Origin: a virus
Taxonomy: Duplodnaviria; Caudoviricetes
Strand: one strand, 5' to 3'
IMG/VR virus record: IMGVR_UViG_3300033066_000709
Location: 1 to 64,000 of that record
Length of the DNA stretch: 64,000 bases
Shown: positions 17,796 to 46,300 of the stretch, in pieces
How positions within the stretch are numbered: position 1 is the first letter of the stretch
Layout of the letters: every line of letters starts with the position of its first letter
Notes under the pieces: generated by a model
Database searches by the model: none
What the model was told of the DNA's origin: nothing
What the model saw: the letters and a program-made list of their open reading frames with translations, nothing else
Program-made: the position numbers and the translations under genes

Positions 17796-19532
17796 TTATA
17801 CTAATGATACATTACCTGTCTTTAAGTATATTGTATAATATTGCGTTTCTGGCCATTGACCTGCTTCTACTAAGGCATAACGACTCTTAACAGCGATTTT
17901 AGGAGACATTGTACCTTCCGCAATCGTTTGTATGGATTCTGCCATTAAGTATGGCATAAATTTTAACCCTGGTTCTTCATCAGCACCTTTACGTCCAACA
18001 AGGATACGAGTATCATTGAAGCTCATATTTGGATCGACATATACTGTCATACCTGCAACTGTTCCTGTTGGATACAATGAGCCGTTATTTTGGTTAATTG
18101 TATTGTTCATAGGAGCAAAGCTAAACTGTGCATTATCTTGTAATGCTGTAGCAATTTGAAGGTTAGTAACAATAAAGTTAGCTGGACCTCTACGACCACG
18201 TTGCATAACAATACTACCAGCAGTTATGATCTTGCTCATAATTCTACGTTGTAATGTATACAAGTTTTCAAAGTCACCATAATCAGCAAAACCATTAACA
18301 TTAATAGCTTCACGGAAACCAATTTTATTAATAAATTCAGGTGATGCAGTTGTACTTAAAGTACTTCTATCTAACGTAAAGTTAAGGGTTACACCAGAAG
18401 TTTTGTAGTATTGGCTATTGTTTGACCATCCAAGAGCGAATGAACGTGAAAGTATGTGTTTGTTAATTGATTGTGAAATTTCATTAACAAGAGCATTTTC
18501 AATCATTGACAATACGTCGATACCGTATTGTTTATTCAAGTCTTGAATTTGCTCTGTCGTAACAGCAGCACTTACTTGGAAAGTTTCAGCTTCTACAAAC
18601 TTGGTGTAAGCTTTAAGGCTCATTTGTCTGTAGTATGTAGATTCACCAGTTGCACGTCCCATAGGATTAACAGGCTCTGTTCCGTTAACATCCGAACCAG
18701 TCCAATTATCTTGATCATAAGTACCAGCACCAGCAAAACCTTGGATTTGATCTTCTAATGCGCGAACTAAATCTGGTTTAGTTGTAACAGCAATAGCAGT
18801 TGAAGAAGTATTAACAGCTGTAGGTACACCTGCTGTATCAGTAGTAATAGCTGCACTTGAATCAAAAACTTCAGCTAATGTAATAGTATTATCTACTGCC
18901 CATGAAGAAGTATATGCCCAAGTTTGACCAACTCTGAAAATAGGATAACCAGTAATACGTGAATATCCAACAAAAATTAATTCTACGGCTTTATCACCAG
19001 AAGCAAATGCACCAGTTGCACCTCTATTAGTTCCCCAATAGTGAGTACCAACTACATATTTTGTAGAATTAATATCGTCTGCATTAATAGAAATTATCAA
19101 TGGTTTATCTGCACCACCAACTTTACCACCAGCATATACATAATCTAAGTATGTAAGAACTCCAGCAGGTCCAGACATTGGAATAACTGAAACAATATCA
19201 AAACCAATAGTTCTAGAAGCAACTTGAATAGCTAATGGAAGTAAAGAAGGAAATTTATCACCACTACCTTGTGTACCAGTATAGAATGATAAAGGACCAC
19301 CAGGAGCAGAACCTGGACGAACAGCACCCATACCAGGCAATGTTCCTAAAGATTGTGTTGAACTATATGAAAAATTTTCATTTAAAGAGTTTGAACTTTC
19401 ATTTACTGTGTGATAGTGACAATATTTAGATAACCATTTCTTTTTATAATCATTAGTAACACCAGCATTTTGTTCCAAAATAGGAGCCCATTGTTCGTAT
19501 ACTTGGCCCTCATTAATTAACATATTATACAT
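17796..19532 (-). CDS. gp23: Major capsid protein, T4 gp23-like
   Basis: WAPILE, DIVSVIPMSGPAG, EQIQDL..YGID...LVNEISQSINK, GPANFIV, YVDP, FMPY, MSPKIAVKSRYAL. Confidence 0.95.
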   Translation of the reverse strand: MYNMLINEGQVYEQWAPILEQNAGVTNDYKKKWLSKYCHYHTVNESSNSLNENFSYSSTQSLGTLPGMGAVRPGSAPGGPLSFYTGTQGSGDKFPSLLPLAIQVASRTIGFDIVSVIPMSGPAGVLTYLDYVYAGGKVGGADKPLIISINADDINSTKYVVGTHYWGTNRGATGAFASGDKAVELIFVGYSRITGYPIFRVGQTWAYTSSWAVDNTITLAEVFDSSAAITTDTAGVPTAVNTSSTAIAVTTKPDLVRALEDQIQGFAGAGTYDQDNWTGSDVNGTEPVNPMGRATGESTYYRQMSLKAYTKFVEAETFQVSAAVTTEQIQDLNKQYGIDVLSMIENALVNEISQSINKHILSRSFALGWSNNSQYYKTSGVTLNFTLDRSTLSTTASPEFINKIGFREAINVNGFADYGDFENLYTLQRRIMSKIITAGSIVMQRGRRGPANFIVTNLQIATALQDNAQFSFAPMNNTINQNNGSLYPTGTVAGMTVYVDPNMSFNDTRILVGRKGADEEPGLKFMPYLMAESIQTIAEGTMSPKIAVKSRYALVEAGQWPETQYYTIYLKTGNVSLV

Positions 19533-22375: not shown

Positions 22376-22655
22376 TTAAACAAAATTAGCAACATTATTT
22401 GTTATTATATAATGTGATTTACATTCGAAGTAATTATTAGCTATAGATGGGGATAAAGATACTTTATCCCCATTTTTAATTAATGTCCATTGATTTTGGT
22501 ATAAAGGGGGTTACTGTTTGACCTTTACAACCACACAAACAAAGATGTATTACACATTTATATTTTTCTGAAATATAAAGTATACCATCTTCTAATTCTT
22601 CTGGTATAAACTCTACATATCTAGGCTCTACATTTACCTTTTTTAAAGTTTTCAT
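22376..22655 (-). pseudogene. DUF6527-like protein interrupted by a +1 frameshift
   Basis: Frame 0 reads MKTL...VEFIPEELEDGILYIS...HLCLCGC...VTP; the +1 frame continues LYQNQWTL...KVSLSPSIANNYFECKSHYIITNNVANFV*. Confidence 0.75.
22448..22477 (+). terminator. Putative + strand terminator inside the DUF6527-like coding region
   Basis: tggggataaag-ata-ctttatcccca followed by ttttt. Confidence 0.5.
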
Positions 22656-24736
22656 ATTATTTTTTCAATCATTTCTATAACTTGATCAGGTGTTATAGAT
22701 GTACTACATATATATTCCATTTTTCTTGGACAAGCTTCCCAACTTTTATCAAAATTTAAATTAACATCATTAAAGCAACCATGACAATGTTGAGTATTAA
22801 TTATTCTGAATGGATTATCATATTCAGCCCAAGATTCTGAAAACCCAGAAGGTACTATACATTTTTTATTCAAAGACCAAGCTATCCAATTAATTGCTGT
22901 CGATGGAGCAAGACAAAACTCTGCATGGTAAATAGTATTAATAGTATCTTCTATTGTTCTATCAGTCCTATCTATAACATTTTTTAAATTTGTTCTTTCT
23001 TTACTTACAATTATAACTTTATAACCTTTCGAATTTAAATAATCAACAACTGTTTGCCAACCTTTTGGGAACATCCAAAGTTTTGCCATTAATGTTGACC
23101 ATTCAGTTATAGCAACATATTTTTCTAGTATAGGTCTACCAATATTATTGACTACTATATTTGGTTTAATCGGTTCATAATCCAAACCTAATATATCACA
23201 TGCTATTTCTTGTAGAGTTAATCTTTTCCAATGTCTTTTATGTCGTTCAAACCTTATATTTTCATCTGCATCAAATATACCTAATCTATATGTTGCATCA
23301 TATTGTTTTAGTATATTATTATCATTTGTATATTCAATAAATTTTATTTCTGGATAATTTTTTTCAAACAATTGAATATGTGGTCCGCAATATGTTACTG
23401 TACAATTATGCTTTAACCTAAAAACTTCTAAGTATGGAAACCATGCAATTATATCACCCATTGCTGGACTTTCATTTACAATTAAAACATTTTTACCTAT
23501 TAAATTTAAAACATGTTCTTCACCATTAACTATTACTTTCCAATTTACAAACCATTTTCTTGATGGTGCATTCCATGTACCTGGTTTACATATATTTGAA
23601 TATATTAACCTATTTTCATCCATATCTATAAATTGAACATCATATGTTTTATCACTAATACCTTTTATGTGACACATGACGCCATCATTATATGTAATTT
23701 CAACATTATCTTTAATAGTATTTTCATTTTTAATAGCATTATCATATATGCTTATAAATTCATCTTTCATATTTTTTCTTTCTTCTATTACATTTAAATA
23801 TAAATTTTCCAATTGTTTAGTTATTTTCGACCAAGTAAAATTATAAATATCTTTTTGTGTATTATGTACATATTCAAAATAATTACCATTATGTATTATA
23901 TGATTAATACCACACGCTATATCTAATGGATAACCAACTCTAACTTTATATAAAGATTTTAATTCTAGAGAACTATCATATGTTCCAACTACCGGTAATC
24001 CAGTAGAAATAGCTTCTAGTAATGTTAAATTTGGGTGACCAGCTTCAAGTCTTGATGGATGCAAAAATAATGTATGCTCATGATATAAATCTATTAACTG
24101 TTTTTCGTTTAAATCATAAATAATATTCAAAAGTTTATATTCCAATAATTCTGGATTAGAATCAAAAAATTCTTTATTATTTTTAGTTGGACCTGCTATA
24201 GTTATAGGTAAACCTAATACAACGGCAGCTTCTATGGCTTCTCTGAAACCTTTTCTATCATATGAATTATCACCTATTATACCATTATTTGCAATACATA
24301 ATAATTTATGTTGCTTTACATCTAATTTTTTCTTAAATGTAAATAAATTAATATCAACACCATGTGGTAAATATACAACATTTGGTAAATTGCCAAATAA
24401 TTTTAACAAATGTTCAGCTGGAACAATACCAATCTCTGCAAATGATAATGCCATTTCATTTTCGCGTCGTACATTATCATGTAACATTACATGATGATCG
24501 TGACAGGTAAAAATATAAGGTATATTTCTAAGTTTCAGCATCATAGCTTGGTTCGCCATGTGGCAATGTACTATTTGATATACACCAGTATTAACTTCAT
24601 TTGGATATTTTATATCAACTTGATGTCCTAATTTTTCTAATTCTAATTTGGTATTAAAAATAATTCTTTCAATTGCTCCGTAATTTGAAGCTCTTGAAAT
24701 ATCATATACACCAGGAGTCACAATACAAATTATCAT
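22652..24736 (-). CDS. GT4 glycosyltransferase fused to a TibC/Aah-like (BAHT) heptosyltransferase-type domain
   Basis: YGAIERI, HGVD, DRKG, LLEAISTGLPVV; then SPAMGDIIAWFPY...CHGCFND...CP...C iron-finger-like motif. Confidence 0.75.
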   Translation of the reverse strand: MIICIVTPGVYDISRASNYGAIERIIFNTKLELEKLGHQVDIKYPNEVNTGVYQIVHCHMANQAMMLKLRNIPYIFTCHDHHVMLHDNVRRENEMALSFAEIGIVPAEHLLKLFGNLPNVVYLPHGVDINLFTFKKKLDVKQHKLLCIANNGIIGDNSYDRKGFREAIEAAVVLGLPITIAGPTKNNKEFFDSNPELLEYKLLNIIYDLNEKQLIDLYHEHTLFLHPSRLEAGHPNLTLLEAISTGLPVVGTYDSSLELKSLYKVRVGYPLDIACGINHIIHNGNYFEYVHNTQKDIYNFTWSKITKQLENLYLNVIEERKNMKDEFISIYDNAIKNENTIKDNVEITYNDGVMCHIKGISDKTYDVQFIDMDENRLIYSNICKPGTWNAPSRKWFVNWKVIVNGEEHVLNLIGKNVLIVNESPAMGDIIAWFPYLEVFRLKHNCTVTYCGPHIQLFEKNYPEIKFIEYTNDNNILKQYDATYRLGIFDADENIRFERHKRHWKRLTLQEIACDILGLDYEPIKPNIVVNNIGRPILEKYVAITEWSTLMAKLWMFPKGWQTVVDYLNSKGYKVIIVSKERTNLKNVIDRTDRTIEDTINTIYHAEFCLAPSTAINWIAWSLNKKCIVPSGFSESWAEYDNPFRIINTQHCHGCFNDVNLNFDKSWEACPRKMEYICSTSITPDQVIEMIEKII

Positions 24737-26430
24737 TCTTTACTTATTAAAATTGATGGGAAGGTTTTTGTGATAGTATTTCTTATACGAGCACTTTCTT
24801 GTTTATAATTAAAGGTATCATTTTTATCATGATACATAAAAATTTCACATTCTGTATCTATAGCAGAATTATCATCATTTAATACATATTCTTTTAATTG
24901 TTCTTCGATACTATCATTTTTGTCTATATAAAATTTTTCAATGATTTCATCAAGCATATAACTTATGCTATCACTTTCACCTATAAATGTTGAATATTTA
25001 TCTTTTGAGAAAAGAATTTTTTGATTCTTTTTGTATTCATTTTTATAAAATTTATCTAAAATTTCAATTTCTGTAGCATATTGTTCATAATCACCAGATA
25101 TAAACATTATAATACTATTATCTTTACAAAATTTATCTATATATTTTATAATTTTTCTAAATAATATTTCTAAATCTATATCTTTAAAGTCAATTATATG
25201 TAATGAATTTATTTTATCATCATATAATCTATTCATACATTGAAAAAAATAAGTGGTTTCATTGTAATCATTATAATCTTCATCTTCATTACTATATATA
25301 ATATAATATTCTAAAGTAGTAGTTTCTTTATATTCTGGTAATAATTTTAAATTATTTATTTTATTATGCAAAATATCTGATGACTTTTGCCAATCTGGAT
25401 GTTTCTGATAATCATTTAAATTCATACTATTCCATGTTATAGATTGTTTATTGAATTTTCTATAAAAATATAAATAGTTTGGTATAAAATATGATGTTTT
25501 GCCAGTTGCTCTAATACATTCTACTATTTCATGGTCATCAGTTAATGGCGTGTCTATTGTGTGAGTCCTTAGAGTATCCTCAATACATTTTCTAGTGTAA
25601 CATGTTGGATGGTATGCTGTATTATCAAACATACTACTATCTAATATTTTCATGTTATCGTGACCAAATATAAGATTATTGCCGATCAACATATCAGTTT
25701 CCTTGTGTTCATTAAAAAACGTATCTATTGTTTCTAATGCATTATTTGTTAAAAAATCATCAGCATCAACTACAACTATTATTTCACCATTAGTTTCAGT
25801 ATAAGAATATTCCCAAAAATTTAAAAATTCTGGTAATCTTTTATACATTATATTATTATCTTTTTTTCTCCATTCGTGTATTTTAGAATAAATGTCATCA
25901 GTTGATTTATTATCAAATATTATCCATTCAAAGTCTTTAAAACTTTGCATTTTTAAACTTTGGTGTAATCTTTCAATTTGATTACTCATATTTTTAATAC
26001 GAGTAACGACTGATATTTTTGGATAACGATGCATTTTTAATATACCATTTTCATGCAAATTATTGAATTCATTTTGACCAAAATGTAACATTCTTTTTTT
26101 AACTACTTCATCAAATTCATTAAATACTTTAATTAAAATGGTATAATTATCACCTTCTTTAAAATGAAATCTTTTTGTGAAATGAAAGAAATCTGTAATT
26201 GGTATATTATCTTCATATAAAACTTTACCATTATTTGTAATCAAAACAAATAATCGTCTATCATCAATTTTGTTAAAACTGGAAAACCAAATTAAAAAGT
26301 ATTCTGGAAATTTTTCAACTGGTAGTATAGTAATATATTCCAACATCGAAAATACATTTATAAAACTATTTGGGAATAATTTTTCTTCTGTTGTTTCTTC
26401 TGTTAATATTTGTTCAAGTACTTGTTTCAT
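24733..26430 (-). CDS. GT2 glycosyltransferase with a degenerate PLOD-like C-terminal domain; in frame with the upstream giant ORF
   Basis: PKISVVT...Q...FEWIIFDNKSTD...VVDADD; KILFS...DTECEIF. Confidence 0.75.
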   Translation of the reverse strand: MKQVLEQILTEETTEEKLFPNSFINVFSMLEYITILPVEKFPEYFLIWFSSFNKIDDRRLFVLITNNGKVLYEDNIPITDFFHFTKRFHFKEGDNYTILIKVFNEFDEVVKKRMLHFGQNEFNNLHENGILKMHRYPKISVVTRIKNMSNQIERLHQSLKMQSFKDFEWIIFDNKSTDDIYSKIHEWRKKDNNIMYKRLPEFLNFWEYSYTETNGEIIVVVDADDFLTNNALETIDTFFNEHKETDMLIGNNLIFGHDNMKILDSSMFDNTAYHPTCYTRKCIEDTLRTHTIDTPLTDDHEIVECIRATGKTSYFIPNYLYFYRKFNKQSITWNSMNLNDYQKHPDWQKSSDILHNKINNLKLLPEYKETTTLEYYIIYSNEDEDYNDYNETTYFFQCMNRLYDDKINSLHIIDFKDIDLEILFRKIIKYIDKFCKDNSIIMFISGDYEQYATEIEILDKFYKNEYKKNQKILFSKDKYSTFIGESDSISYMLDEIIEKFYIDKNDSIEEQLKEYVLNDDNSAIDTECEIFMYHDKNDTFNYKQESARIRNTITKTFPSILISKE

Positions 26431-26433
26431 AAT

Positions 26434-29400
26434 TTATCTAGATAATATGTTAAAATATACGTTTTCTAAACAGTTTGTTTCAGAACCATATTTTTTAATA
26501 ATGTCATTGTATTCTGTTTCATCTTTAAAATATTGAAAATGTTCTAAATAAAAATCAACTTCTGTTATAAAAAATATTGTTTTTAATGTCCATCCTTCAT
26601 TCTCTACTGTATTCATAAAATATGATTTTTTACCAGACTCTCTTAATTGTTTTAATTTATCATCAAAAACATGATAATCTTTTTCTGTAAAAATTAAATC
26701 AAAATTTGTAACTATTGCATATTTATATCCAAGTTCTTTAGCTTTTTTAATACCTGAATACATATTATTATGACAAGCTATTGCATGGTTAGTGTCATTA
26801 TCAAACTTGTGTAAATTTAATTCTACATGATAATCTTCAGTATTAAACCATGTTCTATTATAGAAATCATGCTTAATCATAGGATTATTTTCATCATAAA
26901 CATGGTAGTCTACATTATTTTTAAGTGTATCTGATATTTCACAATGTGTACCTAGTATAACTTTTCTACCAGTAGCCTTTAAAGATTGTACACATTTAAT
27001 AGTAGTATCTTCTGTAGCTCTATAATTAGGATGTGAAGTTACAACACATATTGTATCTTTTTTATCTTTCCAAACAGATTCATCTGGAAAATATGTGTAG
27101 AAATCCCAAGTATCTTTTTGAACGTCTGTATAGAAGTTGTACCATGAATGTGGATTTTTAGTTATCCATGTTTCTAAATGCATTGGCCATTCTTCTATAT
27201 CATTCAAATTTAAATCTGGTAAATTCTTTATATAATTTGAATGTGACCACCAAAAATTACCAGCATACATTCTAGATTCACCATATTTTTCAAACCACAT
27301 ATTGATATATAAACAACCAACTGTATCATATGTTTTTAATTGTTCTATGCAATCTTTCCATTTTTCAATGTTGAAATATTCTAAATAATTTCTCCATTTT
27401 TTAACAGTTTCTTTATTGTGTTTTTCTAAATTACCAGAAAAAACACCCTTCATATGGAAATATAATATATCAACATCTTCATTTATTTTATTACTAAATT
27501 GTTTAATAAACATTAATGTATGATATTCTCTATCATTTTTTTCATGTTTTACTATTTCTACTTTATTTAAATAATCATATAATAACATTTTCTCTATGAA
27601 ATCGTTAAAATCTTTATATGATTCGGAATAAACAGAATAATATAATTTAGTAGCTTTATCATATAAACCAGATGTCAAAAGTTTTATAAATTGTTCATCT
27701 AAAATACTTAACCAATCATTAACTAAATAATTGTGTGAAAATATATAAATTGGTTTTTCTACACTAATAATATTGACATTTTTAGCCCAACTAGAATCAG
27801 AATATATCTTAATATCATCTAAACCTATAGTATCATTTATAGCACGTTTAACGTTTTCATTATTATAATCATGTCCACTAATTATACCATTATTTTTTAT
27901 TTTTGGTAACCAATTAGTTATATCATCTTTTACATCATTGTATTTATGAGAAGCATCAATATAAATTAAATCAAAATATTTATCTTTAAAATAATTTACA
28001 GCATCATTGCTATATCTTTTTAATTTAGTAATATTAGTTTTATCTTTAATCATTAAATCAAACAGTTTTTCACCATTAGAAATTTCATCAGAATTCATTT
28101 CACCATATTCGATCCAAGGGTCTATACATATTACATGTTTACAGTAATTTGAAAAAAGTTCGGATGAAACTCCTGCATATGAACCAATTTCGGCCATTAT
28201 ATAATCAGGTTTAATAAAATCTTTACACAAATCATCTAAACCATACAATACATTTGTACCATTAACTTCATCAAACCATGGTATTCTCTTTTTATTCAAT
28301 AAGTTATCTTTATCAACTTTTACTAACCAACTTGAATCTTGGTATACTCTTATATTTTTTTCACCTAATATTTTATCAACAGCTTTCTTGACTTGTTCTT
28401 TATAATCATGACCACATATGATACCACCATTTTTTATTTTTGGTAAATAATTATTTATATCATCTATAACACATTCATAATCATGACAACCATCTATATA
28501 AACTAAATCTAATGATGAATCTTCAAACATACTTACCGCATAACCACTTGTATGTTTAACTTTAATTATATTATCATACATTGAACTAGTTTTATCAAAT
28601 TCACTTTCTGCTCTAAACGAATTTATGTCCTCTTTACCTTTATATTCCCAAGGATCTATACAATATATTGTTTTACAATGCAGTGCAAATAATTCTGATG
28701 AAACGCCCGCATATGAACCAATTTCAGCCATTACACTATTTTTATTTAAAAATTCATCAGCAATTTCCTTTAAACCCAATAATGTATCAAAATCATTTGT
28801 TATAGGAGTATCTAAATAATCCAACAACATTCTTCTTCTTTTTAGTAAATGATTTAAACGACCAGCTTTAGTTAAAATACCTATACCACCAAATTGTTCA
28901 TATTTCTCACATTGAGATTTTAATATATTATTATAAATATTAATATCAGTTATTTCATTTCTATCAGTACTTATTATTTCATGAGTATTATATTTATTTT
29001 TCAATTCATCCCATAATTCTGGTACACCACAATTCATATTTGTGTGCCATTCTGAATGGATGATATCGTGGAATAATATTATACCTGTGGGTGATAGAAA
29101 TTGATTATATAATTCTAAATCTTTTTTAACACCTTCATATGAATGATCACCATCAATAAATATTAAATCGAATTTTTTATCTAATAATTTGATTACTTCT
29201 ATAGTTTCAGAATCTTTAGAATCAGCAGTAATTATAGTTAAATTTTGGTTTACTTGTTCTAAAAAATCTATATTTGGTTGTCGTTCTATATCAATAGAAA
29301 TTACATTTTCAAATATTTGACATAAACTATGTGTTGTACCACCATTATATCTACCTATTTCTAATGCATTATCAGTTTTTATATCATTATTTAAAATGTA

Positions 29401-32400
29401 TAATAATAAATCTTTCCATTCCTTTTCTTTTTGTTGTATTGAAAAATATTTATTTGATGCCCAATATATTTCATCTACAAATTTCTTGTGATCTATTCTA
29501 TAAAAATATGGCGAATAAAATTTTGCATATAAATATTCAAATGGATATTCATTGACAAATGATGATTCAAATATTGAACATTTTCTAACATTAGAATTGC
29601 TTAATATCCATAATTCTGCATTGAATCTATTCTCATCATATATATCAATCTCTTTTAATGTTTTAATATAATTTGAATTAGCCCACCAAAAATTACCACA
29701 AGTTCTTTGTCTATCAGTTAAATTATGGTATGAATTATATTCATCATCAACAAAAGAAACATCATTATTATTTAATGCTTCTACATTCATTTTCCATTCT
29801 GTTATTGTAAAATGATTAATATATTTTCTCCATGTTTCCATATTTCTGGCTTTATTGGATGCACCCTTTGTATGGTAATAACATATATTAGCTTCCGGTT
29901 TATTGTCGCAATATTTCTTAATTATATGTAATGTTGGAAATTCAAAATTATTATCTCTTAATTTGAATGTTTTAATTTTAGGATATTTTAATACTAAATT
30001 TAGAAAATCAATTTCTTCTTGTGTATTTGGTGCATAATATATCATGTAAATATCAGTGGCGGCATCATATAATCCACCACTTTCTAATAGAAATAATTGT
30101 TCTTCTACAATATATTTCCAATCATTAACTAAATAATTATGCGAAAATACTGCAATATTTTTATCAACAGGCACTTGGTATAAATTCAAATCTTTTGGTG
30201 AATATAGATTTAATGGTTTATGTGGTATACTTGTTATCCAATTTTCACAATTACCTCTACCGCCAGTATCATCAACTTTTTTTAATTTTTTAATATATGA
30301 AATATTTGTCCACCAAAAGTTACCAGCAAATATAGGTGTTAAATCTGGATTTTGATCAAAATAAAATGGACCGATTATATCATAGTTATCCAAATTATCA
30401 ACACAATGTTTCCAATTTGTAATTGTAGTTTCTTCTAATTTATTTCTCCATGATATTATAGCATCTTTATTATTATTTGGATCATGCTCAGAAACTACAC
30501 CTTTTGTATGATAATATAATACTCTACCATTACCATTATAATTAGTAAAAATATCATAAATTTTATTCAATACATCAAATTCATAATTATTTCTATATAA
30601 TAATGATAAATGAATTTTATTATCCGAATCATATTTTTTAACTAAATTTACAAAATCTATCCATGAATTATTATCTTCAGAATATCCATAATAATTTATT
30701 GATTTAGAAGCATCATATAAACCTGATTCAGACAATTTATTTAATTGGTTTGATACAATTTCTTTCCAATTATTAATTAAATAATTATGTGAAAAAATGT
30801 ATATTGGATTAACATCATCTCTATATTCTTCTGGTTTCCAAACAGCTTCGTATAATTGGTTATTTTCTAATGTTGGAGATTTCATATTAAACCACAAATG
30901 AGGTTCCATTCCTATCCATCTCTCAGCATTCATTCTATCACTTTTTATATCAATAATTTTAGGCAATTTTTTTATATGAGATGATTTTGACCACCAAAAA
31001 TTACCACAGTACATATTTGGATACATTTCATGTGTATTATCATTCCAAAAACAACCAACACTATCATAACCATCTAATAATTCAACACATTTTGTCCACC
31101 TTTCTATTAAGAAATATTCCATAACATTTCTCCAAGAAGTCACAGCTTCGTGTGTAACATTAACATCAGAATGATTTTGTATACTTGTAACACCTTTTAA
31201 ATGATAATATAATACATTTACATCAAAATCCAAATTATTAATAGTTTCTTGTAAAAATGATAATGTTGTGAATTCATCTAAATTTTCTTCAAATTTTACA
31301 ACACTTATTTTTCTTTCTGTATCATTTTCAGAAATTACTGATATAAATTTCAAATAGCTTTCTTCTGTTGGAGAATATACACCGAAAAATATTTTATCTG
31401 CATTAAAGTATAAACTACTATTGAATAATTTAGATAATTGGTCTATGAAAATTTCTTCCCAATTATTAACTAAATAGTTGTGGGTAAAAATATAAATAGG
31501 TTTTTTATTCAAATTTAATTCATTTAATATCATTTTTAAATTTTCATCTTTATTAGATGTTAAATATTTTATGTTTGAATATTCATCATACATATTTCTA
31601 TAAACGTCTAAATTATACATTAAAAATGGCATATGCCATGAAGTAGCCTCTCTAATTACTAATGGATTAGTCTCCGTGTCGCCTGGTCGAGCACAAGAAG
31701 TAAATACGAATAAATCCATACAAGAATAAAAATTATCTACATCTGAACGTTCACGCCATAATATACAATTATCAGGTTTATTATCAACTATAGATTCCCA
31801 ATAATATTTAAAATTACCAGCTAATGAACCAACGAAATGAAATTGTATTGGATAATCTTGTAATTGTCTAGCATATTCCATTAACTCACCTTGGTTTTTT
31901 CTCTCGGTGAATATACCAACATTCAATACATGTTTTAATTTTGGATCTAATCCTAATTTAAGAAGTCCTTCAGTTCTATCAGGTCTATCTTTATATTCGA
32001 TTGGATATAAAACTATAGAACTTGGTATACCTAGCGATTCAAACTGTTCTTGTGAATATTTTGAAACAAATATAAAATGATCTGGTAAAAATATTATATT
32101 ATTTACATTCCAAGATGAATCATGCGTAGTTGCAATTAATTTATATGATCTATTATTAGAATATATCTTTTTTGCAATTTCATTATCCATAAACATTTCT
32201 GGCAATTCACCCATATGAATAACATCAGGATCAATTTTATTGATTAAATCTAAAATGATAGACTTATTGGATGATAAAGAGTAGAAATTTTTAGAAACTA
32301 TATCAATTATTTGTTTTCTATGCGTTACAAATTCATCACCATAATACGAATATTCAATTACAAATATCTCATATACATTAATCAAATTTTTAATTTGTTC

Positions 32401-32466
32401 AAGAACATATCTTGGCATTCCACCAGTAGAACAATGTGGAATAATTATCAATATTTTTTGTTTCAT
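26434..32466 (-). CDS. Giant multidomain glycosyltransferase/methyltransferase
   Basis: N-terminal GT4 (STGGMP, NVG..RKNQ, ETNPLVIREA); four HxKG...WR...GNFWW domains; three class I SAM MTases (EIG, IDxxHxY); C-terminal GT-like domain. Confidence 0.85.
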   Translation of the reverse strand: MKQKILIIIPHCSTGGMPRYVLEQIKNLINVYEIFVIEYSYYGDEFVTHRKQIIDIVSKNFYSLSSNKSIILDLINKIDPDVIHMGELPEMFMDNEIAKKIYSNNRSYKLIATTHDSSWNVNNIIFLPDHFIFVSKYSQEQFESLGIPSSIVLYPIEYKDRPDRTEGLLKLGLDPKLKHVLNVGIFTERKNQGELMEYARQLQDYPIQFHFVGSLAGNFKYYWESIVDNKPDNCILWRERSDVDNFYSCMDLFVFTSCARPGDTETNPLVIREATSWHMPFLMYNLDVYRNMYDEYSNIKYLTSNKDENLKMILNELNLNKKPIYIFTHNYLVNNWEEIFIDQLSKLFNSSLYFNADKIFFGVYSPTEESYLKFISVISENDTERKISVVKFEENLDEFTTLSFLQETINNLDFDVNVLYYHLKGVTSIQNHSDVNVTHEAVTSWRNVMEYFLIERWTKCVELLDGYDSVGCFWNDNTHEMYPNMYCGNFWWSKSSHIKKLPKIIDIKSDRMNAERWIGMEPHLWFNMKSPTLENNQLYEAVWKPEEYRDDVNPIYIFSHNYLINNWKEIVSNQLNKLSESGLYDASKSINYYGYSEDNNSWIDFVNLVKKYDSDNKIHLSLLYRNNYEFDVLNKIYDIFTNYNGNGRVLYYHTKGVVSEHDPNNNKDAIISWRNKLEETTITNWKHCVDNLDNYDIIGPFYFDQNPDLTPIFAGNFWWTNISYIKKLKKVDDTGGRGNCENWITSIPHKPLNLYSPKDLNLYQVPVDKNIAVFSHNYLVNDWKYIVEEQLFLLESGGLYDAATDIYMIYYAPNTQEEIDFLNLVLKYPKIKTFKLRDNNFEFPTLHIIKKYCDNKPEANICYYHTKGASNKARNMETWRKYINHFTITEWKMNVEALNNNDVSFVDDEYNSYHNLTDRQRTCGNFWWANSNYIKTLKEIDIYDENRFNAELWILSNSNVRKCSIFESSFVNEYPFEYLYAKFYSPYFYRIDHKKFVDEIYWASNKYFSIQQKEKEWKDLLLYILNNDIKTDNALEIGRYNGGTTHSLCQIFENVISIDIERQPNIDFLEQVNQNLTIITADSKDSETIEVIKLLDKKFDLIFIDGDHSYEGVKKDLELYNQFLSPTGIILFHDIIHSEWHTNMNCGVPELWDELKNKYNTHEIISTDRNEITDINIYNNILKSQCEKYEQFGGIGILTKAGRLNHLLKRRRMLLDYLDTPITNDFDTLLGLKEIADEFLNKNSVMAEIGSYAGVSSELFALHCKTIYCIDPWEYKGKEDINSFRAESEFDKTSSMYDNIIKVKHTSGYAVSMFEDSSLDLVYIDGCHDYECVIDDINNYLPKIKNGGIICGHDYKEQVKKAVDKILGEKNIRVYQDSSWLVKVDKDNLLNKKRIPWFDEVNGTNVLYGLDDLCKDFIKPDYIMAEIGSYAGVSSELFSNYCKHVICIDPWIEYGEMNSDEISNGEKLFDLMIKDKTNITKLKRYSNDAVNYFKDKYFDLIYIDASHKYNDVKDDITNWLPKIKNNGIISGHDYNNENVKRAINDTIGLDDIKIYSDSSWAKNVNIISVEKPIYIFSHNYLVNDWLSILDEQFIKLLTSGLYDKATKLYYSVYSESYKDFNDFIEKMLLYDYLNKVEIVKHEKNDREYHTLMFIKQFSNKINEDVDILYFHMKGVFSGNLEKHNKETVKKWRNYLEYFNIEKWKDCIEQLKTYDTVGCLYINMWFEKYGESRMYAGNFWWSHSNYIKNLPDLNLNDIEEWPMHLETWITKNPHSWYNFYTDVQKDTWDFYTYFPDESVWKDKKDTICVVTSHPNYRATEDTTIKCVQSLKATGRKVILGTHCEISDTLKNNVDYHVYDENNPMIKHDFYNRTWFNTEDYHVELNLHKFDNDTNHAIACHNNMYSGIKKAKELGYKYAIVTNFDLIFTEKDYHVFDDKLKQLRESGKKSYFMNTVENEGWTLKTIFFITEVDFYLEHFQYFKDETEYNDIIKKYGSETNCLENVYFNILSR

Positions 32467-32505
32467 CTGAAAAATCCTTCAAAAATAAAACCATTCATAA
32501 TAATG

Positions 32506-32513
32506 TATATATT
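32506..32513 (-). promoter_or_regulatory. Putative late promoter AATATATA for the glycosylation operon
   Basis: 40 nt upstream of the ATG at 32466. Confidence 0.5.
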
Positions 32514-32534: not shown

Positions 32535-33746
32535 TTATTTTTGTAGGTTAAAGCAATGCTTCAACTTTACAGGACTAACTATAGAGTCCTCTATCCCATT
32601 ATACCATAAGGCATTTGGGACTGCTTTTCTTAATATATTTCCTGCTGCCTGAACGTCAGCATTACAAATGATATTAGTTGAGGTTTTAAAGAGTCCTCGT
32701 TTAACTCTTTTGCCTTGATAAATTTCTTGTTTTTCTATAGGTTCATTATCAAGGAAAGAACACTTACTGGTGTAAGATTCTTCTTGGAGAATAAAGTCTA
32801 TAAAATGATCGTTGCATTTGGATTCTAACTTTCTCTTAAATAGAAAGAATGGAATTAAAACAAAATTTTGGTTGGTCTTAGAACCTAAGTTTATTTTTTG
32901 TTTCCAAGTTTCATTGTAACCACAAACTACAGTACCTATATTGTTTGATAGGCAATGTTTAATTATGTAGGATACAGTTTGATTTAAATAATTATTTATC
33001 CAATTAGACCTATTAATATTAAGTATTGATAGTCGGTTAGACCAATGCTTGTTATTCTTAGTTTTTAGTTCGCTTTGTATCTTAGCTTTACTCTTATTGT
33101 AAAATTGGTTGTATGCCTTTAAAGGCTTTCCATTCATTATAAATGAATGTCCAATATTTGTAACGCACGATGCAAAGTTATTTAAACCTAAGTCTATCGC
33201 TAAACACTTGGATTTGTCCAAGTTTAAATTAATATTCGGTACCTCATCGTATTGAATACATATAGTGTAATAATTATTTGGATGTGGATTTATTATTACT
33301 TGCTTAATAACACCTTTTAAATTAAAGGTGAATGGTATCCTTAAAGCATTAGTTATTTTAAGTTTACCTTTAACTAAAGAAACTTGGTCAGATGGAAGAA
33401 TTAATAAATATTTAGAATCTTTGGGTAAATACTTTGGAGATTTAACAGTGGCAGCATATTCTCCACGTCCTTTTTTCTGAAGTAAAGCAAAAAATGATCT
33501 AAAGTTTTTATCAACCAAACGAACTATTTGTTGGGCTATCTTGGCTGGTAAAGCTTTATAATGATCATTAGTTTTTATTATATGATAAACTTCATTGTAG
33601 CCTAGATATTTATTTGTTTCTTTAAAGTAACCATTAATAACATATAAAGCAGAATTATAAAGTTTCCTAGATTCAGTACACATCCTGGATAACTCCTGAA
33701 ATTCAGTAGAATTTAATTTCCTTATATGTTGTTTTAATGTCCTCAT
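32535..33746 (-). CDS. tnpB: RNA-guided nuclease TnpB, no tnpA
   Basis: SRKLYN, SPKY, AIDLGLNN, QNFV, EESYTSKC, KRGLF, NADVQAA. Confidence 0.93.
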   Translation of the reverse strand: MRTLKQHIRKLNSTEFQELSRMCTESRKLYNSALYVINGYFKETNKYLGYNEVYHIIKTNDHYKALPAKIAQQIVRLVDKNFRSFFALLQKKGRGEYAATVKSPKYLPKDSKYLLILPSDQVSLVKGKLKITNALRIPFTFNLKGVIKQVIINPHPNNYYTICIQYDEVPNINLNLDKSKCLAIDLGLNNFASCVTNIGHSFIMNGKPLKAYNQFYNKSKAKIQSELKTKNNKHWSNRLSILNINRSNWINNYLNQTVSYIIKHCLSNNIGTVVCGYNETWKQKINLGSKTNQNFVLIPFFLFKRKLESKCNDHFIDFILQEESYTSKCSFLDNEPIEKQEIYQGKRVKRGLFKTSTNIICNADVQAAGNILRKAVPNALWYNGIEDSIVSPVKLKHCFNLQK

Positions 33747-43305: not shown

Positions 43306-46300
43306 TTATTTTCTACCTCCATCTTTTATTCTAAATTGTGCTTTACCACCAGTTAATATGTTTCCTAGATTTTGAATATCTTGTCTTAAACCTGATACAC
43401 CATCATTTAAAGAGTTATCAGGTTTTTTATTCTCATTTCTTATATTCTGTTCTTTAATCATAGTCATTAATTCTCTAATACTATCAACTAGCTCTTTATT
43501 GTCACTAGCTATTTGCTGTATATTCGTTGTATTAGTCGCTGGAGACGACGTTTTACTACTTTCTGTAGCTTTACTTATTAAATCTTTTATGCTTTCTGTA
43601 TTCGTTGCTACGAGTGTTGGATCTAATTTTACTAATTCTGTTATTTTATAATTTAAATCCGAGAAAGAATTCATTCTAGCCACATCAATACTGTTTATTT
43701 GGCTAACGTATTCTTTAAAGTCTCCTAAATGTTGTTTGAATGTTTTAGCAAATTTTGCAAATGGGTCATCTATTTTAGACCAACGTTCAAAGAATTGTAC
43801 TATCTTATCCATAGAATCCAAATTCTTTTTATCTATTTTTGCAGTTACAACATCTTTTATAAATAATTTTAAATCTTTTGTCATTGAACCTATTGTACCA
43901 TTATAATTAGTATCAACGACCTTTAATAAATCATTTATATTATTTTTCATAATTGGCATAATGCCTGTTAACCATTTATAAATATTATCATATCCATATT
44001 GTTTAATAATAGTACCTATAGCTTCTATTGGAGATTTAATAATCTCTGCAATAACCTGTTTTTTAGTTTCCCAATCAGAAACATTAAATTCTTTTTTATT
44101 TAAAGTTTCTGATAACATACCTATACTTGATATTGCTTCTTTTATATTTGATAATACAGATACACCTTTTTCTATCCAATAATTATTTAATAACCAAGAA
44201 TTTTTACCAAAGAAAGAATCTGATATTTCTATATTAGCTTTATCATTTGTTTGTGCTAATCCTAATGCACCAAATGGTGACAATGCAGTCTTTATTATAT
44301 TTTTTATATAATTTGCAGCATTATCAAAATTTATTTTTTTAGAATCTTCTGTACTACTTTTTAATATATCAGCTGCTTTTTGTATAAAATCCATACCATC
44401 CATACCAGCTTTTAATGTTTCTGCTCCAGCCTTTATATTTTCTTTTCTCATAGCCCAATAATTATTACCAAATTGTTGGGTTAAAAATGTTTTATCATTT
44501 TCGTTATTATTTTGTATCAGACCTATAGAACCTAACATTATTAATGTTGTCGAAACTATATCTTTAATATTTTTTTTCAATACATCAACATTTAAATTTT
44601 TATTTTTTTGAATGTCCATGTATGGTTGCAAACTTTTGGATATTGTTTCCAATTCTTTACCAACACCTGATATTGCTTTAACACCAGCTGCAATATCTTC
44701 TGCTTTAGCCATTGTAACTTTACCAGAACCTATTTCACCAAAAACAGTCGCTATTAATGATAATATATCTGTTATATTTTTCTTTATAGAAGGCATTTTC
44801 ATATTATCAATAGTAGAAAATGTTTTTAATCCATTAGCTATACCATTTAATATTTCACCAACACCTTTAACAGAATCTATACCTTTTTTAATAGATTCAT
44901 CATAAACCCAAACTTTCTTTTTATTACCAAATGAATCCGTACTTTCTATATAATCACCCTTTTTACCTATTTCTCCAAAAACATTACTAGTAGCTTTTAT
45001 AACTTCAATCATATTATAAGCTATAGAACCTTTTTCGTTAGGATTAAAAGAATCTGATTTAAATCCCATTTTTTCTAAACTAGCAAATGATTTTAAACCT
45101 TCAGCGATTTCAGAAAAAACTTTACCAACACCATTAACGGCCGATATACCTTTTTCCACATTAGTACTTGTAAATAAACCTGTACCCAAAAATCCCTTAT
45201 CACTTGTAGCCCCTATATCACCGAATGCTTTTGATATTAGATTTATTACGTCAGTTACACTTTTTGATATTTTTTCAACATCTATATTTTGTTTTGATAA
45301 ATCATCCCACATTCTTAAACCATTTGCAATTTCTGTAAATGTTTTACCTATATCTTTTACAGAATCAATACCTTTCTGAACATTTGATTTTGTTATTGTT
45401 ATACCAAATAAACTTAAACTATCATTTGCAATATTAGAAAATGCAGAACTTATCATTCCAATAGTTTTAGAGATACTATCTAATAATAATTTACCACCAT
45501 CTGTACCAAATAAACCTCTTGTTTTTTCATCAAATTGCATTAAACCTTCGGCAACAGATGTCAAAGCTTTACCAGATTCAAATGTAGACTCTATACCCTT
45601 TTGAATAGCAGATTTATCTAACGTCCATAAACCAAAGAAACTTGATGATGGATATTTAACACCCATAGCACCAAATGCTTCGCTTACTGCGGTAATACTT
45701 CTACCCATTTTTTCTAAAAATGAACCTGATTTAGCTAAACCATTTTGGTCTACCGTTAAATCTAATACTTTCATTTTTTCATTAAAATCTAATAAACCTT
45801 GTGATATAGATGTTAATGCTTTACCAGCATGTAATACTGTTTCAACACCTCGTTTAACATTATTTGGTCCTATACCAACAGCATTCATTATACCAGTTAA
45901 AAATCCGCTAAATCCTGTTTTACCATCAGAACCAACTAATGCAAATGCGGTTGTCAATTTTAATAATACATTAGCTATATCATCTATTGGGAATTTTGCC
46001 CAATCTAATTTCAATGCTTCTTGTAAACCATAAGTTAATGTTTTTAATGATAATGCCATACCTGTTACTGCAAATATACCACCAATTATAAATGGCGTTG
46101 CTAAACCTATTGCAGAATAACCCATACTTAAACCAGCCATTAATAATGCTAATTTACCAATACTACTCCACTCTACATCATTTAGCATTTTTAAAGATGA
46201 TAGAGAAGCTACAAATAAAGGTAATGATATAGACATACCAGTTATTGCTACTGATCCTAATATTATTAATGGCGAAAGTAAACCTATTATAGAATATCCT

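What the first reader, a model, noticed from the sequence alone, without database searches (positions are those of the whole stretch)
22376..32513. Phage-encoded glycan 'assembly line' next to the capsid genes (putative virion glycosylation and methylation system)
Seen: a translationally coupled operon behind an AATATATA late-type motif. The 2010-aa ORF has the order GT4, R1 (~31500), R2 (~30807), R3 (~30156), three SAM MTases (~29370, ~28730, ~28195), R4 (~27753), then a GT-like domain. Each R is a ~200-aa domain with HNYL...YxHxKG...WR...GNFWW...E-x-W. A GT2/PLOD-like ORF and a GT4-BAHT fusion follow, for about 13 catalytic-type domains in total. Known: multidomain GT-MTase proteins build methyl-capped capsid glycans in chloroviruses, and the motif order HxK..WR..GxFW..ER recalls RgpF rhamnan-synthesis proteins. 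Inference: the phage makes an O-methylated oligosaccharide coat on its S/T-rich virion proteins, and R is an unclassified GT family amplified four times.
Basis: partly seen in the sequence, partly recalled or inferred. Interest (0 to 1): 0.85.

Follow-up and report, generated by a model that had tools for sequence, protein, structure and literature searches.

The report
Megaphage multi-enzyme glycan assembly operon
A huge Prevotella-type phage carries a three-gene operon with about a dozen sugar-adding and sugar-methylating domains, including a protein-glycosylating enzyme, which most likely builds a methylated sugar chain on a protein, probably a virion protein, although that target is untested.

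Summary
On the minus strand lie three coupled ORFs of 2010, 565 and 694 aa.

The 2010-aa protein reads GT4, R, R, R, three SAM methyltransferases, R, then a C-terminal domain I call X. The four R copies are 32-41% identical and share the reported motifs.

- **R domain.** It is not new as a family: it is Pfam DUF8361 (PF27674), with more than 4,000 clusters, mostly viral. Its model has a GT-A fold (Z up to 12) with H-x-K where GT-A enzymes carry DxD. It is a weak profile relative of RgpF rhamnosyltransferases.
- **X domain.** X is a second, unrelated GT-A-like domain (Z 13.4).
- **New here.** X and the N-terminal beta-sandwich of the next ORF (Y) form one fused unit in every relative examined with both domains outside this lineage. 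In this phage a single in-frame TAA splits them, which implies that the two proteins dock.
- **Third ORF.** It is a GT4-BAHT fusion. It scores above the TIGR04414 cut-off, and the TibC catalytic Asp and four iron-finger Cys are conserved.

The glycan-assembly function is well supported. The virion target is only inferred: the operon shares a promoter-like motif with capsid genes, none of the three proteins has a membrane segment, and S/T-rich structural proteins lie nearby. The position next to capsid genes is not conserved in the relatives examined, and "PLOD-like" is unsupported.

Verdict: a new variant of a known kind, moderately interesting.

The parts
32506..32513 (-). AATATATA promoter-like motif, 40 nt upstream of the ORF1 start
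   Evidence: The same motif sits 25-45 nt upstream of the protease/MCP operon and of the 996-, 2060- and 800-aa ORFs. 16 of 27 coding-strand copies fall in the 8.4% of the window that is intergenic.
31513..32466 (-). ORF1 aa 1-318: GT4-type (GT-B) glycosyltransferase domain
   Evidence: PF00534, 33.1 bits (cut-off 26.4). 41% identical to the N-terminus of the LR756501 1140-aa ORF.
30832..31509 (-). R1 (aa 320-545), DUF8361 domain
   Evidence: AlphaFold model with a GT-A fold.
30193..30810 (-). R2 (aa 553-758), DUF8361 domain
29512..30162 (-). R3 (aa 769-985), DUF8361 domain
28867..29466 (-). MT1 (aa ~1001-1200): SAM methyltransferase, Methyltransf_24 and RMNT_CmcI type
   Evidence: PF04989, 31.9 bits (cut-off 23.2), and PF13578. 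DLIFIDG motif.
28312..28821 (-). MT2 (aa ~1216-1385): SAM methyltransferase (Methyltransf_24)
27787..28281 (-). MT3 (aa ~1396-1560): SAM methyltransferase (Methyltransf_24)
27124..27759 (-). R4 (aa 1570-1781), DUF8361 domain
26437..27069 (-). X (aa 1800-2010): second GT-A-like domain with invariant H-P and N-F-D motifs
   Evidence: Model at pLDDT 82. Z 13.4 to B4GALNT1 and Z 11.9 to PBCV-1 A064R-D1. Unrelated to R by profile (P 0.46).
26434..26436 (-). In-frame TAA that splits the otherwise fused X-Y unit
   Evidence: X-Y is fused in 12 relatives, in 17 metagenomic loci and in both LR756501 loci.
26026..26430 (-). Y (ORF2 aa 1-135): beta-sandwich partner of X
   Evidence: about 104 columns aligned to the beta-sandwich of GH2 enzymes.
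25411..26025 (-). ORF2 aa 136-340: GT2 (GT-A) glycosyltransferase
   Evidence: PF00535, 40.6 bits. TarS and GalT1 by sequence.
24736..25410 (-). ORF2 aa 341-565: unassigned C-terminal region
   Evidence: No Pfam, PHROG or PDB sequence match. No relative among the fetched proteins.
23747..24736 (-). ORF3 aa 1-330: GT4-type domain
   Evidence: PF00534, 23.2 bits, below the cut-off. Full-length homologues carry PF00534/PF13692.
22655..23746 (-). ORF3 aa 331-694: BAHT (TibC/Aah-type) protein O-glycosyltransferase domain
   Evidence: TIGR04414, 221.5 bits (cut-off 200). TibC 4RB4 at E 2e-36, with D110, T226, K230, W305 and C339/342/358/370 conserved and R286 replaced by T.
22376..22656 (-). Small DUF6527-like ORF, interrupted by a frameshift and ATGA-coupled to ORF3
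   Evidence: Read from the sequence. The family name is recalled and was not tested.

Best explanation
The operon encodes a soluble, cytoplasmic glycan assembly line.

Shown:
- Twelve catalytic-type domains lie on three coupled proteins: two GT4, one GT2, four DUF8361 (R), one further GT-A-like domain (X), one BAHT and three SAM methyltransferases.
- None of the three proteins has a membrane segment.
- The X|Y split shows that ORF1 and ORF2 carry the two halves of a unit that is a single polypeptide in relatives.

Inferred mechanism:
- The BAHT domain primes Ser/Thr of a folded, beta-rich protein with a first sugar. This would be heptose-like, but the donor is uncertain because TibC Arg286 is Thr here.
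- Its fused GT4 adds the second sugar.
- ORF2 (Y-GT2) docks on ORF1 through X-Y.
- GT4, X, GT2 and the four R domains extend the chain.
- The R domains are probably metal-independent 6-deoxyhexose (rhamnose-type) transferases, with H-x-K in the DxD position.
- The three CmcI/RMNT-type methyltransferases O-methylate sugars.

The most likely acceptor is a phage structural protein: one of the S/T-rich 800-aa and 2744-aa repeat proteins, or the capsid protein. The result would be a methylated O-glycan coat on the virion.
For: Domain content:
- Domain calls.
- R fold: Foldseek matches GtrB, ArnC and DPMS at E about 2e-5. VIA Z is 12.1-9.2 to GT-A transferases.
- R is fused in 40 relatives with Methyltransf_24 (18), GT2 (14), GT1, CmcI, FkbM, GT92, GT17 and GT9.
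- A bacterial R homologue in Segatella copri sits in a Wzx-type polysaccharide locus.
- RgpF is the nearest named family by language-model features.
- hhalign to RgpF scores 33.6 (P 3.9e-4), against at most 18.3 in 30 column shuffles, and aligns the H..Y, HTK and WR motifs.
- RgpF is an alpha-1,2 rhamnosyltransferase (PMC9574508).
- MT1 matches the rhamnosyl O-methyltransferase family.
- X fold: Z 13.4.

Protein target:
- BAHT residues are conserved against TibC.
- There are no hydrophobic segments.

Link to virion genes:
- The operon sits in the structural module beside the protease and MCP.
- It shares the AATATATA upstream motif with those genes.
- S/T-rich repeat proteins lie nearby.
- A collagen-repeat protein lies directly beside the BAHT gene in LR756501.

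Precedents:
- PBCV-1 A064R, a GT-GT-methyltransferase acting on the capsid glycan (PMC9614988).
- Glycosylated mycobacteriophage capsid and tail tube (cited in PMC12619734).
Against: - No glycan, acceptor or expression data exist.
- Adjacency to capsid genes is not conserved in LR756501.
- The closest MCP relatives in the phage collection (LR756500, Lak) gave no R, ORF1 or ORF3 match in the tblastn searches.
- 17 metagenomic X-Y loci have no BAHT, GT4N or ORF2-type GT2 within 9 kb, so BAHT priming is not general for this enzyme family.
- Bacterial DUF8361 proteins probably act on lipid-linked glycans.
- TibC Arg286, a heptose-binding residue, is not conserved.
- No sugar-nucleotide genes were found in the 101-kb fragment, which is only 33% complete.
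- R could in principle be another enzyme of the same fold, since nucleotidyltransferases score Z 10-11.
Confidence: 0.5

Rival explanations
1. Host-surface remodelling. The enzymes act on the host's lipid-linked capsule or O-antigen intermediates during infection. This would change receptors, for example to exclude superinfection or to stop progeny from sticking to debris.
For: - The bacterial R homologues found (about 34 of 49 loci) are in Prevotella/Segatella.
- The one examined lies in a Wzx-flippase polysaccharide locus with LicD, an IspD-like enzyme and an epimerase.
- RgpF-type enzymes build wall rhamnans on lipid carriers (PMC9574508).
- Adjacency to capsid genes is not conserved.
Against: - All characterised BAHT enzymes modify proteins (PMC4358343), and the BAHT gene is ATGA-coupled into this operon.
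- Neither the operon nor its immediate neighbours scanned encode an initiating phosphoglycosyltransferase, flippase, polymerase or ligase.
- None of the three proteins has a membrane-binding segment.
- The promoter-like motif is shared with structural genes.
Confidence: 0.2
2. Protein glycosylation of a non-virion target. The glycan is put on a host protein, such as an adhesin or other surface protein, or on a non-structural phage protein, rather than on the particle.
For: - Known BAHT substrates are bacterial surface adhesins.
- GT4-BAHT fusions of this type are very widespread: 1034 clusters at E<=1e-10, with contigs up to 295 kb. They need not all be tied to virions.
Against: - No autotransporter-like gene is in the window.
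- The operon lies inside the structural gene block, with the same upstream motif.
- A collagen-repeat, fibre-like gene is adjacent in LR756501.
Confidence: 0.12
3. DNA hypermodification, or a free methylated oligosaccharide. The transferases glycosylate modified bases, or make a soluble cytoplasmic glycan.
For: Phage glycosyltransferases often act on DNA (reviewed in PMC12619734).
Against: - The BAHT family is protein-specific, and its catalytic and iron-finger residues are kept.
- The methyltransferases are of the sugar O-methyltransferase type (CmcI/RMNT).
- R-family fusion partners are polysaccharide-type enzymes.
- No base-hydroxymethylation genes were seen next to the operon.
Confidence: 0.05

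Closest known systems
Chlorovirus PBCV-1 A064R (GT-A rhamnosyltransferase, cation-independent rhamnosyltransferase D2, 2-O-methyltransferase) with A061L
   Same: - It is a virus-encoded, soluble, multi-domain enzyme of about 200-aa modules that extends and methyl-caps a glycan on the virus's own capsid protein (PMC9614988).
- Domain X matches the A064R-D1 structure (2P72/2P6W: Z 11.9, rmsd 3.3, 183 aligned).
- A064R-D2 needs no cation, which fits R lacking DxD.
   Different: - A064R has three domains; this system has nine on one chain and twelve in the operon.
- Its host is eukaryotic and its glycan is N-linked, whereas priming here is by a BAHT-type O-glycosyltransferase.
- Sequence homology of R to A064R-D2 was not tested, because no copy of that sequence was available to me.
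RgpF-family rhamnan synthesis proteins (Pfam PF05045)
   Same: - Domain size is about 230 aa.
- The motif order is the same: H..Y on strand 1, HTK(K/G), WR, G-(S/N)-(M/F)-(F/W)-(Y/W), then an acidic residue.
- It is the nearest named family by language-model features.
- The profile-profile score is well above the shuffles.
   Different: - No match to the PF05045 model at any tested threshold.
- The R profile does not find RgpF proteins directly.
- hhalign probability is only 36%.
BAHT family (TibC, Aah): autotransporter O-heptosyltransferases
   Same: - TIGR04414 scores above the cut-off.
- The alignment covers TibC residues 22-385.
- The catalytic Asp110, Thr226, Lys230, Trp305 and all four iron-finger Cys are conserved.
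   Different: - It is phage-encoded and fused behind a GT4 domain.
- No autotransporter substrate is present.
- Arg286 is replaced by Thr, and Pro300 by Ser (as in Aah), so the donor sugar is uncertain.
Mycobacteriophage virion glycosylation (Che8-type; Freeman et al. 2023, as cited in PMC12619734 and PMC11256854)
   Same: Phage-encoded glycosyltransferases decorate capsid and tail-tube subunits.
   Different: - Those systems use a few single-domain enzymes. They have no megaenzyme, no BAHT and no DUF8361 that I could check.
- The primary paper is not held in the library.

Membership tests
Pfam DUF8361 (PF27674) | Match to the family model | tested here: met
   This is indirect, because the local Pfam copy lacks the model. 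The R profile finds proteins at E 1e-73 to 1e-44, and nearly all of them carry precomputed PF27674.1. 28 of the 30 nearest Atlas clusters share this family set, and the best three score 0.97-0.98.
RgpF (PF05045) | Score above Pfam gathering cut-off (25 bits) | tested here: not met
   No PF05045 hit for the four R domains at E<=10, for 55 family members or in the whole record.
RgpF (PF05045) | Remote homology by profile-profile comparison and shared motif order | tested here: inconclusive
   hhalign probability 35.6%, P 3.9e-4, score 33.6 over 132 columns. Shuffles reach at most 18.3 and the reversed control 15.3. The G-N-F-W-W / G-S-M-F-Y correspondence was matched by eye only.
GT-A fold glycosyltransferases | Rossmann-like alpha/beta/alpha nucleotide-sugar binding fold | tested here: met
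   R: Z 12.1-9.2 over 160-180 residues. X: Z 13.4, rmsd 3.0, 169 aligned. Sugar nucleotidyltransferases with the same fold also score Z 10-11.
GT-A fold glycosyltransferases | DxD metal-binding motif after strand 4 | tested here: not met
   R has near-invariant H103 and invariant K105 (H-x-K-G) after strand 98-104. X has invariant N122-F123-D124. The mapping to the DxD position rests on strand order, not on a residue-level superposition.
BAHT (TIGR04414 hepto_Aah_TibC) | Equivalog model score above cut-off | tested here: met
   221.5 bits against a cut-off of 200, covering aa 344-693 and model positions 11-374 of 374.
BAHT (TIGR04414 hepto_Aah_TibC) | Catalytic base Asp110 and the four iron-finger cysteines (339, 342, 358, 370) | tested here: met
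   All five align to identical residues. Residue roles are taken from PMC4358343.
BAHT (TIGR04414 hepto_Aah_TibC) | Heptose-binding residues Arg286, Trp305, Thr226, Lys230 | tested here: inconclusive
   Thr226, Lys230 and Trp305 are conserved. Arg286 aligns to Thr. Donor specificity therefore cannot be assigned.
BAHT (TIGR04414 hepto_Aah_TibC) | Heptosylation of a beta-helical autotransporter; dodecameric ring | not testable with these tools
   No autotransporter is in the window. Oligomeric state and activity need experiments.
GT4 / Glycos_transf_1 (PF00534) | Score above gathering cut-off | tested here: met
   ORF1 N-terminus scores 33.1 bits against 26.4. ORF3 N-terminus scores only 23.2 bits, but its full-length homologues carry PF00534.
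SAM methyltransferases (Methyltransf_24; RMNT_CmcI) | Model scores above cut-off and SAM/metal motifs | tested here: met
   PF13578 at 173.6 bits in three stretches. PF04989 at 31.9 bits against 23.2. D-[LV]-[IV]-[FY]-I-D-[GA] motifs at aa 1100, 1320 and 1499.
   No Pfam, NCBIfam or PDB sequence match for aa 341-565.

The most novel reading that the evidence does not exclude
DUF8361 is a large, mainly viral family of metal-independent GT-A glycosyltransferases, with H-x-K replacing DxD, and is a distant sister of RgpF and possibly of chlorovirus A064R-D2. In this megaphage four copies work inside a docked two-protein megasynthase. A BAHT enzyme primes a virion protein, and the megasynthase then builds a methylated rhamnan-like O-glycan on it. 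This would be the first bacterial-virus counterpart of the giant-virus capsid glycan machinery, and the first virion use of BAHT-type O-glycosylation.
Probability: 0.3. Interest if true: 0.8.

Novelty: new variant of a known kind. Interest (0 to 1): 0.6.

Why it matters
- **Assigns a likely function to a large unknown family.** DUF8361 has more than 4,000 clusters at 50% identity, mostly in viruses. Here it gets a concrete and testable assignment: a glycosyltransferase with an unusual H-x-K active-site motif.
- **Widens the known scale of phage glycan machinery.** Uncultivated megaphages of gut Prevotella-type hosts carry combinatorial megaenzymes. GT4, R(1-4), MT(0-3) and X-Y are shuffled between relatives, on a scale so far described only for giant viruses of eukaryotes.
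- **Relevance of a virion glycan, if that is the product.** It would bear on phage recognition by hosts and by the immune system in the gut.
- **A ready-made interaction test.** The X|Y gene fission gives a protein-protein interaction that can be checked directly.

Tried and rejected
- **Local Pfam, NCBIfam and PHROGs on R and X:** no significant family.
- **PDB sequence search:** nothing with the R profile or with ORF1.
- **RgpF model:** absent from the phage record, LR756501, S-SRM01 and five Prevotella-type genomes. The R HMM does not hit RgpF proteins directly.
- **R against X:** unrelated by profile (P 0.46).
- **Plasmid collection:** no R homologue.
- **Close relatives in IMG/VR:** none for ORF1 or ORF3.
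- **Related-locus searches:** alignment A2 was too diverse for a scan. The first genome-contig scan found nothing.
- **X as a stand-alone protein:** no homologue of similar length.
- **Sugar-nucleotide genes:** Epimerase, NTP_transferase and CTP_transf_like were not found in the 101-kb fragment. This is uninformative at 33% completeness.
- **TAA readthrough or recoding at the X|Y junction:** considered and rejected. TAA ends 32 of 45 ORFs, and an 83%-identical relative ends at the same point.
- **Collagen-like G-X-Y runs in the window's S/T-rich proteins:** none.
- **Tools unavailable:** The Freeman 2023 paper is not held.

Full report
**Setting**

The window is the first 64 kb of a 101-kb IMG/VR virus record that CheckV rates 33% complete. 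It is AT-rich, at 23-33% GC. Its major head protein (17796-19532) is 43-45% identical to those of the uncultured 462-kb phage LR756500 and the Prevotella Lak megaphages. A prohead protease lies next to it. The window is therefore a fragment of a huge phage of that broad group.

**The observation**

- ORF1 and ORF2 are in the same frame, separated only by TAA-ATT before the ATG.
- ORF2/ORF3, and ORF3/the next small ORF, overlap by ATGA.
- The four R repeats are real. Every motif recurs at the four stated places, and the copies are 32-41% identical.
- Pfam finds a GT1-family (GT4-type) domain at the ORF1 N-terminus.
- Pfam also finds three Methyltransf_24 domains. The first also passes the cut-off of the rhamnosyl O-methyltransferase/CmcI family.
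- Pfam finds a GT2 domain in ORF2.
- ORF3 aa 344-693 passes the NCBIfam equivalog model for autotransporter O-heptosyltransferases (221.5 bits against 200).

The AATATATA motif is not over-represented as a word, but it is strongly positional. Of its 27 coding-strand copies, 16 lie in the 8.4% of the window that is intergenic. They sit typically 25-45 nt before starts, including the protease/MCP operon and the 996-, 2060- and 800-aa ORFs. It is a plausible phage promoter element shared with structural genes. Calling it 'late' is an inference.

**What R is**

R has no match in the local Pfam, NCBIfam or PHROG libraries. It is far from an orphan, however.
- A profile of the four copies finds 4,289 cluster representatives at E<=1e-3 among 1.84 billion proteins.
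- The homologues carry the precomputed Pfam label PF27674, DUF8361. The protein atlas shows this family as mostly viral.
- The family is therefore already delimited, though still of unknown function.
- Across 55 members, E79, Y101, K105, G169 and E196 (R1 numbering) are invariant. H10, H103, G106, W126, R127, D149, N170, W172 and W173 are nearly so.
- An AlphaFold model (pLDDT 76, pTM 0.80) matches GT-A glycosyltransferases. Foldseek gives E about 2e-5 to GtrB, ArnC and DPMS.
- An exhaustive structural scan gives Z 12.1-9.2 to CHSY3, ArnC, mannosylglycerate synthase, hyaluronan synthases, GlcAT-P, COLGALT1, WrtF, RmlT, TarP/TarS and SpsA.
- Sugar nucleotidyltransferases of the same superfold (GlmU, IspD) score almost as well, so the fold alone does not prove transferase chemistry.

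Context argues for a glycosyltransferase.
- In 40 multidomain relatives R is fused to Methyltransf_24 (18), GT2 (14), GT1, CmcI, FkbM, GT92, GT17, GT9 and acyltransferase domains.
- It occurs in one to four tandem copies.
- In cyanophage S-SRM01 a stand-alone copy lies in a cluster with a sulfotransferase, a glycosyltransferase and a sugar epimerase.
- In Segatella copri a homologue lies between an IspD-like enzyme, an epimerase, LicD and a Wzx-type flippase.
- By strand order, H-x-K-G follows the fourth strand, where GT-A enzymes carry DxD. I infer a metal-independent mechanism in which basic residues bind the diphosphate.

**The RgpF lead**

- Direct model searches fail.
- Once DUF8361 is excluded, 27 of the 30 nearest named atlas clusters are RgpF.
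- I fetched ten RgpF C-terminal half-domains from Bacteroidota genomes.
- They carry the same motif series: H..Y, N.GRD, HTKKS, WR, G-S-M-F-Y, H..ER.
- hhalign against the R family scores 33.6 (P 3.9e-4, probability 36%) over 132 columns and aligns those motifs.
- Thirty column-shuffled controls reach at most 18.3, and the reversed control 15.3.

I read this as a real but distant relationship. R is not a member of PF05045.

RgpF is an alpha-1,2 rhamnosyltransferase (PMC9574508). Together with the rhamnosyl O-methyltransferase-type MT1, this makes a 6-deoxyhexose donor the best guess.

**The X-Y unit and the gene fission**

The last 211 aa of ORF1 (X) and the first 135 aa of ORF2 (Y) are adjacent in one polypeptide in 12 fetched relatives. 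The same holds in both LR756501 loci and in 17 metagenomic loci on contigs up to 208 kb. The alignment runs through the window's TAA without a gap.

The stop is genuine, for two reasons.
- TAA is this phage's usual stop, ending 32 of 45 ORFs.
- An 83%-identical relative ends at the same point.

The unit was modelled as fused, with the stop read through (pLDDT 82).
- X is a second GT-A-like domain. It scores Z 13.4 to B4GALNT1. It also matches POMGnT1, GnT-I, LARGE1, WrtF, RmlT and the PBCV-1 capsid-glycan enzyme A064R-D1 (Z 11.9).
- X has invariant H-P and N-F-D motifs and is unrelated to R by sequence.
- Y is a beta-sandwich resembling the sugar-binding sandwich of GH2 enzymes.

The fission implies that ORF1 and ORF2 associate through X and Y. 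This is the best evidence here for a physical 'assembly line'.

Relatives shuffle the modules freely. Examples are GT4-MT-MT-R-X-Y, GT4-MT-X-Y-R and R-MT-MT-MT-X-Y. This suggests glycans of variable length and methylation.

**The BAHT fusion**

ORF3 aligns with TibC (4RB4) over residues 22-385 at E 2e-36. Residue roles come from PMC4358343.
- Conserved: the catalytic base Asp110; the ligand-binding Thr226, Lys230 and Trp305; and all four iron-finger cysteines.
- Changed: Arg286 is Thr. The stereoselectivity position Pro300 is Ser, as in Aah.

Family membership is therefore well supported, but the donor sugar is uncertain.

The GT4-BAHT architecture is widespread. There are 1,034 clusters at E<=1e-10, and the best 120 cover the full length at 38-44% identity. 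It recurs in LR756501 at 41% identity. There it follows a GT4-...-X-Y protein and sits beside a divergent 695-aa collagen-repeat protein.

**What it probably does**

None of the three proteins has a hydrophobic segment. No flippase, polymerase, ligase or initiating phosphotransferase is in the operon or among the neighbours scanned. The only domain with a defined acceptor class is protein-directed.

The operon lies in the structural block and shares its upstream motif with capsid and other large structural-type genes. Two nearby ORFs are candidate acceptors: 52946-55348 (800 aa) and 55409-63643 (2744 aa).
- Their S+T content is 25-26%.
- They share a repeated module of about 50 aa.
- One copy of that module matches a PHROG 'head protein' family.

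I therefore favour protein O-glycosylation of a virion component, followed by extension and O-methylation. I put this at about 0.5. The more general statement, that this is a multi-enzyme glycan-synthesis and methylation operon, I put at about 0.9.

**Evidence against the virion reading**

- The position next to capsid genes is not conserved. In LR756501 the two homologous loci are at about 305 kb and 580 kb, and the MCP is at 77 kb.
- LR756500 and the Lak phages gave no R, ORF1 or ORF3 match in the tblastn searches of the phage collection.
- None of 17 metagenomic X-Y loci has a BAHT within 9 kb.
- Bacterial DUF8361 genes lie in lipid-linked polysaccharide loci.

Host-surface remodelling therefore remains a serious rival.

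**Comparison with what is known**

- The nearest functional analogue is chlorovirus A064R with A061L. It has GT-A and cation-independent rhamnosyltransferase domains plus a 2-O-methyltransferase, and it acts on the capsid glycan (PMC9614988).
- Phage virion glycosylation is itself known from mycobacteriophages (cited in PMC12619734).
- What differs here is the scale (nine domains on one chain), the DUF8361 amplification, the BAHT priming module, the split X-Y docking unit and the megaphage/Prevotellaceae setting.

I rate it a new variant of a known kind.

**Limits**

- ORF2 aa 341-565 was not folded.
- Homology of R to A064R-D2 could not be tested.

Noticed in passing
window 22376-22656 (-): A small ORF is ATGA-coupled to the BAHT gene. 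It reads as a Cys-rich DUF6527-like protein only if one base of a C5 run is skipped. As it stands, it is split into a 59-aa frame and a +1-frame tail. The family name is recalled and was not tested.
   Followed up: partly
window 32535-33746 (-): An IS605 OrfB/TnpB-like gene (PF01385 and Cas12f1-like TNB; phrog_506) lies immediately upstream of the operon, with its own AATATATA motif. It marks a possible insertion point beside the glycan module.
   Followed up: partly
window 52946-55348 and 55409-63643 (-): Two S/T-rich (25-26%) proteins of 800 and 2744 aa share a repeated module of about 50 aa, rich in T/S/G. Neither has a Pfam match. One module of the larger protein hits phrog_1236 'head protein'.
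   Followed up: partly
L019-L067 (genome contigs): About 34 of 49 bacterial loci with R homologues (27-32% identity) come from Prevotella, Segatella or Prevotellaceae. This fits a Prevotellaceae host, as for Lak phages. The search patterns used may bias the count.
   Followed up: partly
L084:12983-13201, L088:5013-5312, L089:9337-9636, L091:5472-5771: In four metagenomic loci, small ORFs of 156-198 aa resemble only the first 120 or so residues of this phage's major head protein (about 30% identity). They lie about 3 kb from the X-Y gene on the opposite strand.
   Followed up: no
L007:6205-8292 (LR756501): A 695-aa protein with collagen triple-helix repeats lies divergently next to the GT4-X-Y and GT4-BAHT genes of the 735-kb phage. 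It is a candidate glycosylation substrate there.
   Followed up: no
whole window: Stop codon use among 45 ORFs is TAA 32, TGA 12 and TAG 1. TAG is almost unused as a stop, although the standard code still gives long, contiguous ORFs.
   Followed up: no
window 43306-49488 (-): A 2060-aa ORF has many hydrophobic, TM-like segments and repeated helical modules. It looks like a tape-measure or membrane-interacting protein. No Pfam or PHROG match.
   Followed up: no
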